Shown: positions 17,186 to 59,534 of the stretch, one piece after another
How the letters are laid out: each line of letters starts with the position of its first letter
How positions within the stretch are numbered: position 1 is the first letter of the stretch
DNA from: Eledone cirrhosa
Taxonomy: Eukaryota
DNA length: 64,000 nucleotides
Assembly (NCBI GenBank): GCA_964016885.1
Contig: OZ024740.1
Span: 129,642,001-129,706,000, forward strand
Direction of reading: 5' to 3'
Program-made: the position numbers and the translations under genes
The notes under the pieces: model-generated
The model's input: the letters and a program-made list of their open reading frames with translations, nothing else
Database searches by the model: none
Told to the model about the DNA's origin: nothing

Positions 17186-17317
17186 GAAAATGTTTAACCC
17201 CGACAACAGAGCTCAAGCCGTTTCGATGGCTATTTCTGGATTAAATTAGAATTCTAATTTAGTCCAGAAATAGCCGTCGAAACGGCTTCAGTTCTGCCGT
17301 CGGGTTTAAACATTTTC
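17186..17317. repeat. 132-bp near-perfect palindrome next to (TA)n, containing the 3' half of a hammerhead-like motif
   Basis: Centre TTAGAA|TTCTAA at 17251/17252. The arms match with few mismatches. Confidence 0.9.
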
Positions 17318-18951
17318 CTATTACCCACTCTACTACCCTAAGTACTGATTACTCTGGTGCGTTATGCTCCATCTGGTTCCTTACCACACTTGCTTCGTTA
17401 TATATATATATACATTATATCATAAATATATATCTTTATCACACACATACACACAAATCCATATACATATATATATATATATATATATATCCAGACCGAT
17501 CGTAAGCAATTAAATACCTTAAACACAATTTGATTGTTATCTATGTTTATATATATATATATATTAGGTATAGGGGGCCTGGTCGAAAAATATATTACAT
17601 TCCCCATTGCATGTTGCAAAAACTAGTGTGATTATCCTGTGACCTGGCCTGGAAGGCATGCCATGACCGCAAAAAAGTTTCATAACACGTGACCCCAAAA
17701 AGTATTCAGAGGAGAACACACTTTAACAGAAGCCATTTTATAAATGTATTATGTCAGAAGTCATTCTTTTGTCCGTCTAGTCAATTTAATTATGTTAGAA
17801 CTGAGCACAGTCGTGTTGGTTCCATCCTTGACAACGGCGATTATTCAGTTCTATATTAGTTAATAATATTAATTATTATTTGTTATGTGTTCATTCAAAA
17901 ATAGTTCTTACGAATATGTATTAAATCCAATTGATGCCTTGAATTCCTGGACATTACTTTAGTGTATAGTACGACAGACCTTCATATATCTTGTATTTTC
18001 AAACTATCGTCCGTTTGTGTTGCAGCATTCCGCATCTAAAGATGTCTGCACCCCTACTTTCATATACAATTATATATATTCACTTATAAATATTGAATCT
18101 CTTTAAAAAGTTTAGTTAGTTATTTTTTTATTTACTCATGGGATATTCGTAAACAGAGATGTCGCTTGAAGAAAAAATGTTAGCGTCACTACTTTTAATC
18201 GTATTACTTTTTATGTTTGATGAGTGGTGAATTTTGTGAGAGATTACACCTCTCTTGTTGGAAGTACGCATTATCTTAAATATAAGAATGAATGACGGAG
18301 AGTAGAAAAAGGTAGAGTTAAGTGAGAAAAATGTGAATAGAAAGAAATTCTATTTTAAAAGAAATCAGCCACTTCGTACATTAGAGTGTAGAAGGGATAA
18401 AAATGGCTGCTTATAGCTTAAATGCTTCGTGAAGAAACAAGAAAAAGGAGCGTTTTTATCCCATACAGGGAAAATTATATTTTTTCTGATCGTGGTAAAG
18501 TTGTTTATTATATATTTTTACTTCATAGGTTTTTAAGAAATGTCTGCTATTTGTCAGCGATTGAAAGATTATATATATATATATACACGTATATATATAT
18601 ATATATATATATATATATATATATATATATATATATATATATATATATATATATATATATATATATATATATATATTTATTTATTTATTTATTTATTTAT
18701 ATATATAATCTTTCAATCGCTGACATATATATATATATATATACGCACGCACAGGCACACACGGATACATATATGTGTGTGAGTGTGGATGTATGTGTGC
18801 GTGTTTGTGTGTGTGTTTGTATGTATGTGTCTGTGTGTTTTTGCGTGTGGGTATGTATATGTTCATACGTGTGTATATGTGTACATATTCATAAGTATAT
18901 ATGTATTCTCAGGCTCATTATTGCTAATGTTGTTATTAATAACATTATCAA

Positions 18952-58600: not shown

Positions 58601-59534
58601 GTAAAACTAGAAACGTAGTCTATAGCATAAGATGTACAGAGGGTACTTGCAGAAACATGACAACAGCATACATAGGTGAGACAGCTCGTAGCATAGGTGA
58701 AAGGATAGACCAACACTGCGAGGAACTAAAAGGACGAAAAAACGGGTCAGTACTATACGAACATGCTAGACAACAACATGACGGTAACATAGACAACATA
58801 GAAATTAGAATAATATCTAAACATAGGAATGACCCAGCAGATAGGCAAATCAGAGAGGCCAGTGAAATAGAAATTAGAAGACCAAAGCTAAACAGAAAGA
58901 ATGAGTGGAACAACAACAACACCCAAACAAACAACACTGACCTAAGAGAAGTATAAATAAGTAAATAAAATAAAATAAAATAAGATAAATAAATACATAC
59001 ACAAGCACAATAACAACAAGCACATAAACACACACTAGTCACCCAGCAGACACAACACTATACACACTAGTCACACATCACACATAACACTATACACACA
59101 CGCAAACGCATGCGCAAAGAAGACAAAATAAAATAAGATAAACAAACAGGCAAATAAATAAATAAATATATAGACAGACTGAACAAAAAAAAAAAATGGC
59201 GTAGACATACAACACAACAGGAGGAACAATGAATATAACACCACTGACGATGTTGCAGATGTGCAACGAAAGATTTATGTAAATTATGTAAACTATATAT
59301 ATGTGTTTGTGTCTATATTGTATCTGTATTATTTTTGACCGCCGGTCAGTCAATGGCAACATTGAGGACCGAGTAAGTTAGATCGCAGATATAAAAGACA
59401 GCGAGAAGCGAAAACCAACCAAACAGTGAGTGTGTTCTGTTATTAATTCTGGCAATATTACGCAAATATGACCCTCCCCAAATATAACAATATCTGTTTC
59501 GACACACGATTTCATATAAAAAACCTCGCAAAAC
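55633..59534 (+). mobile_element. Naiad-like Penelope-like element, 5'-truncated with an inverted partial pLTR, in (TA)n
   Basis: 55633-55741 is the reverse complement of 59385-59493. 41-nt 3' extension. (TA)n flanks. Confidence 0.9.
55708..58956 (+). CDS. PLE RT + Cys-rich linker + GIY-YIG endonuclease with an Asn-rich insertion
   Basis: LKLPPKF, PTDKSG, LYGLRKDHK, TRPVC, GSMDVVSLYPSI, the Naiad-type RGRPPTIT insert, QNEGAAIG, RYVDD, LPVLD, C..C..C...C, NVVY..YIGET, ERIDQH. The first codons derive from the inverted pLTR; first ATG at 55789. Confidence 0.9.
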   Translation: MVFASRCLLYLHFKKKLYRHFKKKLEWMNKKKLQERKIEYSQKYPDNIDNIRMSDVKLPAEFTNDHTVNIYGNTLISEQEQQILKLPPKFAIYKKINPMECKTELEKCFTKIRWNAKVNNNNNNNGSSNINNNSGYRNNSHNHNNGRKVRNSDNGNNTSDRRNNNNHNNNNNNNRNVNHSHSNSDHSSNNGNNTNNNNNNHSGNNGNSTCSNINKNKKHNNSNNHNGRNSSNNNNNNGEVNNNTSSNHNNNNINANDRNNNNHHDNNNSNTHNYDDRNNDNPLEKLFFNPADKTYKMGNIYPTRLPFNKRVCIPQQIDDETEAQFTIARNKIRQVVDRYTMRQSRPEAQQLWIKPVEGLVSLKQRTRDDEVVCLPTDKSGRMSIDSMPNYIEAMQPHITNTSEVAQLTHDGREKILNAHMMMWTDILKPSRRTANNFQASNNGIPPLYGLRKDHKTVDDPTTGPPTRPVCGANIASNYRISYFLSMVIRPIMKMSPDVCESTEDLLSRISECNKNRSLSNCIIGSMDVVSLYPSINIDFAVKRCVEMIIESEVEFCDVDTDELGLLLRLTYDTDYLDSHDLRCFCPSRPIRGRPPTITSMAKKTPIGRCIGWTKAIRTPQNTDQVRKMVAHAIGASIKTTLKGHIFKFNEKIYTQNEGAAIGVSIAGDVANLFMVWWERRLNDLLNESSIDLIMYSRYVDDINIVIRTPPLESTNKFDLERNTMESIQQIANSIHQSITVTIDFPSKHPNNRLPVLDTELWINTIDERAQILHSHYAKPMASKYLILKNSAMSSSAKFNILIADLVRVMKNVSSMCDPTEMEGHIQHFINRMQFSGYNQRDRVRVYEGAMEKYKTLIELDMKGICPLYRSKSWNSLDRARHKIGKATSWYDNQRYQSVMFVDASPGGKLANQCRKALRKTHLKIKVVEKPGTTIKSLISKTYPFKKTHCTNRKCIICKVNPRINCKTRNVVYSIRCTEGTCRNMTTAYIGETARSIGERIDQHCEELKGRKNGSVLYEHARQQHDGNIDNIEIRIISKHRNDPADRQIREASEIEIRRPKLNRKNEWNNNNTQTNNTDLREV

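What the first reader, a model, noticed from the sequence alone, without database searches (positions are those of the whole stretch)
17186..59534. Candidate system: diverse (TA)n-targeting hammerhead retrozyme-like elements beside autonomous PLE helpers
Seen: at least three sequence-unrelated non-coding elements (27119, 27966, 29327) and several fragments (17186, 22866, 29005) share with the two coding PLEs a (TA)n insertion site, no obvious TSD, and partial-tandem plus inverted architecture. Several carry type I hammerheads with palindromic stem III. Known: PLE pLTRs carry hammerheads, and non-LTR retrozymes form small circular RNAs. Inference: these are 300-600-nt self-cleaving, possibly circular RNAs mobilised in trans by PLE RT/GIY-YIG. 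I am not aware of these families being described in this host, but cannot check.
Basis: partly seen in the sequence, partly recalled or inferred. Interest (0 to 1): 0.8.

Follow-up and report, generated by a model that had tools for sequence, protein, structure and literature searches.

The report
Rearranged hammerhead ribozyme in animal retrozymes
Three high-copy non-coding tandem repeats in this animal (likely octopod) genome are likely small self-cutting RNAs spread by Penelope-like retrotransposons, and one of them carries a predicted hammerhead ribozyme with its parts in a scrambled order that has so far been described from environmental sequences.

Summary
The three non-coding elements are real: dispersed, young tandem-monomer families A (318 nt), B (545 nt) and C (622 nt), each with over 1,300 candidate matches, sitting in (TA)n. 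They carry the Penelope-like (PLE) footprint: partial tandems, an inverted arm, and two fixed 3' ends, as the window's coding PLEs do. A and B hold type I hammerheads with palindromic stem III and compensatory changes in sister families: ordinary non-LTR retrozymes. C has no type I hammerhead. It holds the full hammerhead core in the order site-GAAA-CUGAUGA (type SGC, a non-circular permutation), with the 3-nt linker and extra helix of that type, but with stem II split by a junction. All seven helices show covariation (18 of 36 pairs, 0 of 500 shuffles), and the motif has 10,512 exact pattern matches in the genome. Type SGC was described from metatranscriptomes, not from named genomes. The three 'fragments' are truncated ends of coding PLEs, and the apparent 22885 hammerhead is a chance mutation. 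No helper PLE, RNA expression, circle or cleavage was shown. Verdict: new variant of a known kind.

The parts
27119..27938 (-). Family B insertion: 1.45 monomers (545-546 nt) on the minus strand, 27119-27909, plus a 32-nt inverted arm 27907-27938; outer end at 27119, inner fixed end at 27938
27299..27380 (-). Family B type I hammerhead: CUGAUGA at 27375, long stem II with a C.A mismatch at its base, palindromic stem III, predicted cut after U at 27304
27967..28947 (+). Family A insertion: left arm 27967-28340 (minus, 1.2 units), right arm 28336-28947 (plus, about 1.9 units plus a short leader); outer end at 27967, inner fixed end at 28947
28766..28811 (+). Family A type I hammerhead with U3-A8 core variant, near-palindromic stem III, predicted cut after GUC at 28807; further copies at 28448-28493 (+, stem II base mutated) and 28127-28172 (-)
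29331..30874 (.). Family C insertion: left arm 29331-30027 (minus, 1.1 units of 622 nt), right arm 30023-30874 (plus); outer end near 29331, inner fixed end near 30874
29378..29479 (-). Predicted type-SGC (non-circularly permuted) hammerhead with split stem II; predicted cut after A at 29433
30134..30235 (+). Second copy of the predicted type-SGC hammerhead: closing helix 30134-37/30232-35, side hairpin 30138-59, stem II strand 30161-65, interaction helix 30166-71/30211-16, stem III 30175-79/30200-04, cut after 30180, stem I 30181-87/30217-23, GAA 30197-99, CUGAUGA 30224-30
30755..30856 (+). Third copy of the predicted type-SGC hammerhead (closing helix damaged); predicted cut after 30801
17186..17400 (+). 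Fold-back 3' end (66-nt inverted arm, 145-nt direct arm with 79-nt tail) of a coding PLE family; not a retrozyme
22845..23065 (-). Tail and inverted piece of the terminal repeat of a coding sister family of the 55687 PLE (78% over 71 nt of its tail); apparent plus-strand hammerhead core at 22885 is a private mutation
29005..29163 (-). Truncated 3' end of another coding PLE family (GIY-YIG domain upstream in other copies)
38264..53214 (+). Coding PLE complex 1: open frame 46708-49200 (830 aa, RT plus GIY-YIG motifs), tandem and inverted copies, two terminal sites 137 nt apart, type I hammerheads at 46271, 52879 (+) and 38462 (-) with the same long-stem-II, C.A-base, UU-site design as family B
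55633..59534 (+). Coding PLE 2: open frame 55687-58956 (1089 aa), 109-nt inverted arm, 41-nt tail 59494-59534; 36 of 40 terminal pieces in 30 genomic loci end within 7 nt of 59493 or 59534

Best explanation
A, B and C are likely non-autonomous retrozymes: non-coding tandem monomers whose RNA is predicted to self-cleave and is likely copied into (TA)n sites by the reverse transcriptase and endonuclease of Penelope-like elements, with family C likely using a non-circularly permuted (type-SGC) hammerhead. Shown: tandem monomer periodicity at dispersed loci, no ORF, (TA)n flanks, no target duplication, two fixed 3' ends per family, hammerhead cores with compensatory stem changes. Inferred mechanism: a tandem copy is transcribed; hammerheads one monomer apart cut it to unit length and some units are ligated to circles; a PLE protein dimer nicks both strands of a (TA)n site and starts reverse transcription at two fixed internal sites of the RNA (24, 110 and about 29 nt apart in A, B, C); the two cDNAs, of variable length and often longer than one monomer, are joined head to head. 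Because the start sites lie only 73-184 nt downstream of the predicted cut, arms of one or more monomers need a circle or an uncut multimer as template. In C the catalytic core is assembled from three strands in the order cleavage site, GAAA, CUGAUGA; stem II is one base pair (none in one sister family) followed by a junction with a closing helix and a side hairpin, then 4-5 further pairs.
For: Copies: 1308, 2693 and 2576 first-look candidates; 470 exact hits of the A core, 12,272 of a B-group 18-mer, 10,512 of the C-group pattern, reversed-pattern controls 0. Units are 98-99% identical to their consensus; longest stop-free frames 39-103 aa. Of 102 distinct loci 58 are inverted; 38 of these 58 have one end at the outer and one at the inner fixed site (within 3 nt); 136 of 159 3' ends have (TA)5 or more within 45 nt. 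In a position-picked sample of A, 17 of 18 loci have an end at 294 or 318. The same two-end pattern in the coding PLE matches the tail explained by two internal RT start sites (PMC11167929). Units of one locus share minority alleles: B 43% tandem, 47% inverted vs 12% between loci; C 28/32 vs 5; A 7/10 vs 2. A sisters switch U3-A8 to C3-G8 and exchange stems II and III; B sisters show at least five stem II pairings. C motif on 21 sequences: 91% of cells paired, 18 of 36 pairs change on both sides, 0 of 500 shuffles reach this, slid controls 27-46% paired; a divergent 554-nt sister keeps every helix with other letters; position 17 is A or C in 101 of 101 instances although any base was allowed; descriptor hits 151 in 1.06 Mb of (selected) loci vs 5, 5, 0 in shuffles. 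Order, 3-nt linker and interaction helix match type SGC (PMC10085705).
Against: No cleavage, RNA or circle was observed. No helper was found: 0 of 20 comparisons of A, B, C and the 554-nt sister with five coding PLE ends beat 98% of shuffles. C's stem II is not continuous, against the block rule of the type-SGC paper, and in the 554-nt sister positions 10.1/11.1 are G.A in 20 of 21; stem III has only 1 of 5 pairs with a two-sided change; the 21 sequences are related, which inflates the shuffle test. Single-sequence folding of the C motif is unremarkable (z -0.2 and -1.1, no pseudoknots modelled) and the circular C monomer folds only modestly better than shuffles (z -2.5 vs -6.0 and -7.5 for A, B). 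The six units of locus L057 are not identical, so a single circular template is not shown. Pile-up of 5' ends at the predicted cut is weak: B 4 of 39 (0.7 expected if uniform), A 1 of 81, C 1 of 39. In vitro only 1 of 9 frog retrozyme dimers cleaved, and a lizard PLE used uncut RNA as template.
Confidence: 0.72

Rival explanations
1. A, B and C are PLE-mobilised non-autonomous elements, but the C motif is no longer (or never was) catalytic: it is a structured binding or positioning site for the PLE protein next to the RT start site, and the hammerhead letters are a relic. Templates are uncut tandem transcripts, not circles.
For: The motif ends about 20 nt before the inner fixed end in C; stem II is split or absent at the core; HHR cleavage was dispensable for insertion in the one PLE tested in vitro; most arms cross the predicted cut.
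Against: All catalytic positions, the A15.1-U16.1 pair and a non-G position 17 are kept between divergent families while stems are exchanged; a binding site would not need the NUH rule. One inverted insertion has both arms, and another one arm, starting at the predicted cut (L278, L250).
Confidence: 0.15
2. The C hammerhead is active only across two monomers or in the circle: either as standard type SGC using the stem II and interaction strands of the next copy, or as a canonical type III or dimeric hammerhead built from blocks of two copies.
For: In the compact fold the interaction helix is tied to stem III on both strands by 3 and 6 nt, a long reach in the known hammerhead fold that the type-SGC authors flag even for one strand. 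The units are always tandem.
Against: The 3-nt linker and five covarying pairs of the interaction helix fit a local fold; long-range versions need pairing across about 500 nt. This rival still makes C a self-cleaving retrozyme.
Confidence: 0.2
3. The units are simply truncated terminal repeats of coding PLEs, or satellites amplified at the DNA level.
For: This is true of the three fragments; family B's hammerhead design equals that of coding PLE 1, so B likely descends from a PLE terminal repeat.
Against: Monomers run head to tail into themselves for up to about six units with no ORF; none of 102 A/B/C loci, 30 C-pattern loci, 30 loci of the 554-nt sister or 30 B-pattern loci showed a PLE frame joined to the unit as its terminal repeat (tested with two to four PLE protein pieces only); insertions are dispersed with fixed RT-type ends.
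Confidence: 0.07
4. The C motif is conserved as a protein-coding relic or as a C/D-box snoRNA.
For: Several changes look synonymous in one frame; Rfam gave a weak snR66 match (E 0.23, 22 bits vs 65 needed).
Against: A stop codon lies just upstream in that frame and indels differ between sisters; box spacing is too short and the changes are explained by base pairing in seven helices.
Confidence: 0.03

Closest known systems
Animal non-LTR retrozymes (Cervera and de la Pena 2020, PMC7229834; Li, Clavereau and Pollet 2026, bioRxiv 10.64898/2026.07.22.740005)
   Same: Non-coding, low-GC tandem monomers of a few hundred bases with one hammerhead per unit, in genomes that also hold PLEs; proposed to be moved by PLE enzymes.
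   Different: Here the insertions show the PLE inverted arm, two fixed ends and a (TA)n target, features the 2020 text does not mention (0 hits for inverted, microsatellite, octopus, cephalopod). Family C lacks the type I hammerhead that defines the group. B and C exceed the 150-450 bp range of 2020 but fit the 51-972 bp range of 2026.
Type-SGC hammerhead ribozymes, HRIMA-1 (Eckert et al. 2023, PMC10085705)
   Same: Block order site, GAAA, CUGAnGA; full catalytic core; 3-nt linker between stem I and stem II strands; extra helix joining the other sides of stems I and II.
   Different: Stem II is split by a junction with a closing helix and a side hairpin; the second stem II strand and the interaction strand lie upstream of the cleavage block; it sits in a high-copy mobile element of an animal genome, whereas the paper reports no such RNA in genomes of known organisms.
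Penelope-like element insertions and their tails (Craig et al. 2021, PMC8557442; Frangieh et al. 2024, PMC11167929)
   Same: Partial tandems, inverted 5'-truncated copy, a tail at one end only, microsatellite or AT-rich targets, hammerhead in the terminal repeat.
   Different: A, B and C encode no protein; tails are 24, 110 and about 29 nt rather than 30-40; no shared sequence with a coding family was found. Non-autonomous head-to-tail PLE derivatives are known from Chlamydomonas, in a clade without canonical hammerheads.

Membership tests
Non-LTR retrozyme | Small tandem monomers, multi-copy | tested here: met
   318, 545, 622 nt; up to about six units per locus; over 1,300 candidates each
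Non-LTR retrozyme | Non-coding, GC under 50% | tested here: met
   GC 0.34, 0.37, 0.44; longest stop-free frames 39-103 aa
Non-LTR retrozyme | Type I hammerhead in each unit (families A and B) | tested here: met
   B core intact in 29 of 32 units, A in 21 of 34 by a fixed-length pattern that misses a 1-nt-shorter stem III variant
Non-LTR retrozyme | Type I hammerhead in each unit (family C) | tested here: not met
   no type I fold on either strand of the circularised consensus; a type-SGC fold instead
Non-LTR retrozyme | Self-paired circular fold | tested here: inconclusive
   circular MFE z -6.0 (A), -7.5 (B), -2.5 (C) against 25 shuffles
Non-LTR retrozyme | Expressed as linear and circular RNA; self-cleaves | not testable with these tools
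   needs RNA and in vitro assays
PLE-type insertion | Partial tandem, inverted arm, tail at one end, microsatellite target, no TSD | tested here: met
   58 of 102 loci inverted, 38 of 58 with outer plus inner end, 136 of 159 3' ends at (TA)n; 4 of 99 with any flank repeat
PLE-type insertion | Terminal sequence shared with an autonomous PLE | tested here: not met
   0 of 20 comparisons with five coding families significant; the genome holds more PLE families than were compared
Type-SGC hammerhead | Block order site, GAAA, CUGAnGA with conserved core and NUH site | tested here: met
   core positions 72-76 of 76 in loci not picked by the pattern; H17 A or C in 101 of 101
Type-SGC hammerhead | Stems I and III and interaction helix with covariation | tested here: met
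   two-sided changes in 4 of 7, 1 of 5 and 5 of 6 pairs
Type-SGC hammerhead | About 3-nt linker from stem I to stem II | tested here: met
   3 nt in the alignment
Type-SGC hammerhead | Continuous stem II adjoining both CUGAnGA and GAAA | tested here: not met
   one pair (A-U, G-U or U-A), or G.A in the 554-nt sister, then a junction
Type-SGC hammerhead | Site-specific cleavage abolished by the G5 mutation | not testable with these tools
   bench assay

The most novel reading that the evidence does not exclude
An animal genome holds over ten thousand copies of an active, non-circularly permuted hammerhead of a new sub-topology (type SGC with stem II split by a four-way junction), carried by a radiation of PLE-mobilised circular-RNA retrozymes; this is the first such ribozyme in a cellular genome and shows that retrozymes are written into DNA from two fixed PLE start sites on a circular or multimeric template.
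Probability: 0.55. Interest if true: 0.8.

Novelty: new variant of a known kind. Interest (0 to 1): 0.66.

Why it matters
Non-circular permutations of a ribozyme were thought rare and tied to unassigned environmental RNAs. A version in a mobile element of an animal genome, with many diverged subfamilies, gives a host, a biological role and a family series in which to ask how such a topology arises from a type I hammerhead, and a 102-nt construct with a predicted cut site that can be tested in a day. Descriptor pipelines for type I hammerheads (as in the 2026 survey) would miss this whole group, so retrozyme counts may be low. Separately, the two fixed ends per family map the likely PLE reverse-transcription start sites on non-autonomous RNAs, which turns the proposed retrozyme-PLE link from co-occurrence into a testable mechanism.

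Tried and rejected
Rfam scans of the window and of the motif found only weak HH9 matches for A (E 0.3-9) and chance miRNA or snoRNA matches. My first strict type I scan returned nothing; looser descriptors were used afterwards. Pfam gave no family for either PLE frame; PLE identity rests on RT and GIY-YIG motifs read in the sequence and on relatives; clades were not assigned. A type II hammerhead reading of C was rejected because its U16.1 is not conserved in sisters; twister, hairpin, HDV-like and pistol readings were considered from recalled consensus motifs and did not fit. No RNA holder was listed; the three runs laid were contigs of unstated kind from one sample and say nothing on expression. 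The C-group pattern had no match in metagenome or viral contigs. Helper search: a 2.9-kb repeat with the C-group motif (L276, L277) is a sister unit joined to an unrelated PLE; head-to-head joins of a retrozyme arm and a PLE arm (L280, L283, L287, L276) could be two-template insertions, but the PLE arms are often older and sequential insertion explains them; L349 is a PLE inserted at a C end. The rolling-circle test (identity of units within a locus) could not separate a circle from a homogeneous multimer. The paper on dimer-cleaving PLE hammerheads (PMC5785218) is not held. The earlier-findings index had nothing for these words.
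Full report
Setting. The window lies at G000:C1:129642001-129706000 in a 3.0-Gb animal assembly. The best named relative of the 55687 frame is an Octopus vulgaris protein at 67% identity; with the genome size and the dense (TA)n content this makes an octopod likely, but the species was not determined.

The three elements are real families. The sequence shows a partial tandem plus an inverted arm between (TA)n runs at 27119-27938 (B), 27967-28947 (A) and 29331-30874 (C). 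Searches of the own genome gave 1308, 2693 and 2576 first-look candidates, of which 38-40 were scored. Aligned full units (34, 32, 29) give monomers of 318, 545 and 622 nt, 98-99% identical to their consensus, GC 0.34-0.44, with no stop-free frame above 103 aa. Exact-pattern counts are 470 for a 30-nt A core, 12,272 for an 18-nt B-group motif and 10,512 for a degenerate C-group motif, each with 0 for the reversed control; the last two count sister families and tandem copies together.

They carry the PLE footprint. After dropping loci fetched twice, 102 remained (47 A, 26 B, 29 C): 58 are inverted, and 38 of those have one end at the outer and one at an inner fixed site (A 318/294, B 545/435, C 622/593, within 3 nt); 136 of 159 3' ends have five or more TA units within 45 nt. 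The similarity-picked loci favour full-length copies, but 17 of 18 position-picked A loci also end at 294 or 318. Coding PLE 2 behaves alike: 36 of 40 terminal pieces end within 7 nt of 59493 or 59534; coding PLE 1 has two terminal sites 137 nt apart. Craig et al. describe partial tandems, inverted copies, tails and (TA)n targets for PLEs (PMC8557442, passages seen), and Frangieh et al. show in vitro that the tail is the stretch between two internal RT start sites used on either target strand (PMC11167929, parts 1-2 of 4 read). Only 4 of 99 loci had any non-microsatellite flank repeat of 10 nt or more. Units in one locus share minority alleles more than units of different loci (B 43% tandem and 47% inverted vs 12%; C 28 and 32 vs 5; A 7 and 10 vs 2), so both arms likely come from one RNA or one source; this does not prove a circle, and the six units of L057 differ.

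Hammerheads of A and B. A has a type I fold with U3-A8 in place of C3-G8, a 4-bp stem II, a near-palindromic stem III and a GUC site. Sister families found in flanks keep the fold with exchanged stems, and one has C3-G8. That the 3-8 pair may covary is shown for C3G/G8C; that U3-A8 is active is recalled, not tested. B has a 51-nt stem II domain with a C.A mismatch at its base, a perfect palindrome in stem III and a UU site; sisters show at least five stem II pairings. Coding PLE 1 has the same design, which suggests descent from a PLE terminal repeat, though no sequence similarity remains. A and B meet the published definition of non-LTR retrozymes (PMC7229834, parts 2-3 of 6 read; bioRxiv 10.64898/2026.07.22.740005, parts 1-3 of 5 read).

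Family C is different. No type I fold exists on either strand. An alignment of 16 group members showed a conserved multi-helix RNA just upstream of the inner end. Read as a hammerhead, it contains every core position but in the order cleavage site, GAAA, CUGAUGA: stem III is GGUAU with AU(A/G)CC, stem I is a 6-7-bp helix, a 3-nt linker joins stem I to a stem II strand, and a 5-6-bp helix links the other sides of stems I and II. This is the type-SGC arrangement of Eckert et al. (PMC10085705, parts 2-5 of 8 and passages read; figures and supplements not seen). On 21 sequences the 36-pair model has 91% of cells paired, 18 pairs with two-sided changes, 0 of 500 shuffles as high on four of five measures (the count of further pair types was not unusual, 205 of 500), and slid controls at 27-46%; two-sided changes occur in all seven helices, only one of them in stem III. 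The sequences are related, so the shuffle count is not a probability. The strongest independent support is a divergent 554-nt tandem family (1838 candidates) that keeps stem I, stem III, the interaction helix, the distal stem II helix and the closing helix with different letters. Position 17 is A (67) or C (34) in 101 of 101 instances. In 76 full instances from loci not picked by the pattern each core position is kept in 72-76, but young copies are that conserved everywhere, so the between-family pattern carries the weight. The departure from the published type is stem II: one pair (A-U, G-U or U-A), or a G.A opposition in 20 of 21 copies of the 554-nt family, then a junction with a closing helix and a side hairpin, then 4-5 pairs; the strands that complete it lie upstream of the cleavage block. 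By the paper's block rule this feature is not met, so C is not filed as a plain HRIMA-1 member; it likely works like one. Single-sequence folding, which cannot form the pseudoknots, gives no signal.

Genomic hints of cleavage are weak. Arm 5' ends within a few bases of the predicted cut: B 4 of 39, A 1 of 81, C 1 of 39; in the wider C group 6 arm ends from 5 insertions, among them L278 with both arms starting there, but TA-like letters at that site blur the junctions. Since RT starts lie at most 164, 184 and 102 nt downstream of the cut, the many arms longer than that need a circle or an uncut multimer; this is inference.

The fragments and the helpers. 29005 and 17186 are 3' ends of two coding PLE families whose GIY-YIG domains lie upstream in other copies; 22845-23065 is the terminal repeat of a coding sister of PLE 2, on the minus strand. 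Crowding of retrozymes and PLEs in the window follows from the common (TA)n target.

Novelty. The kind is known. Searches of the held library for 'type-SGC', 'HRIMA-1', 'rearranged hammerhead' or 'permuted hammerhead' returned only the 2023 paper; 'non-circular permutations' with 'hammerhead' listed six papers, of which one more was checked by passages (PMC13725137); 'hammerhead ribozyme' with 'cephalopod', 'octopus' with 'Penelope' and 'hammerhead', and a 2023-onward search with 'retrotransposon' showed no report of such elements (listings only). The 2023 paper states that no such RNA was found in genomes of known organisms apart from one weak bacterial type-GCS candidate. Subscription papers, Dfam and Repbase were not searchable, and the unseen supplements of the 2023 and 2026 papers may bear on this. 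Verdict: A and B are new members of a known kind; C is a new variant; overall interest 0.66.

Noticed in passing
L009:14-936, L063, L139, L140, L143: A 310-nt tandem family, 75-80% like the ends of A, with a short type I hammerhead pattern: a further retrozyme family.
   Followed up: partly
L065, L108, L247, L260, L263, L045: The C group has sister monomers of about 518, 531, 554 and 637 nt; spacings of 493-640 nt appear in the pattern list.
   Followed up: partly
L276:1247-4185 and L277: A C-group arm joined head to head, without microsatellite, to a 5'-truncated coding PLE with its own hammerheads; similar joins in L280, L283, L287. Possibly one insertion from two different RNAs.
   Followed up: partly
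window 17186-17400 and L202-L220: Many copies of this PLE end fold back at the same palindromic point (66-nt plus 145-nt arms), as if a short hairpin element propagates on its own; the query may have selected for this.
   Followed up: partly
window 10922-11112, 18998-19151, 19383-19787, 25625-25761, 30992-31306, 35425-35609: A very high-copy repeat with a B-box-like motif (label recalled), probably a tRNA-derived SINE; summed depth about 2 million.
   Followed up: no
L170:near 1000-1100 and L026 left flank: Another short repeat with a CUGAUGA ... GAAA hammerhead-like core, seen in flanks of several loci.
   Followed up: no
window 59605-59752: A 148-nt near-perfect inverted repeat next to coding PLE 2 (weak Rfam MIR9563 match, below threshold), likely a small fold-back element.
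   Followed up: no
window 1-7650, 8358-9227, 59886-60677: Broken LINE-like frames at the left end and two related mariner-like fragments (labels from reading the translations and sequence).
   Followed up: no
window 29663-29796 and 30565-30697: Family C has an internal, 71% identical duplication of about 130 nt within each monomer.
   Followed up: no
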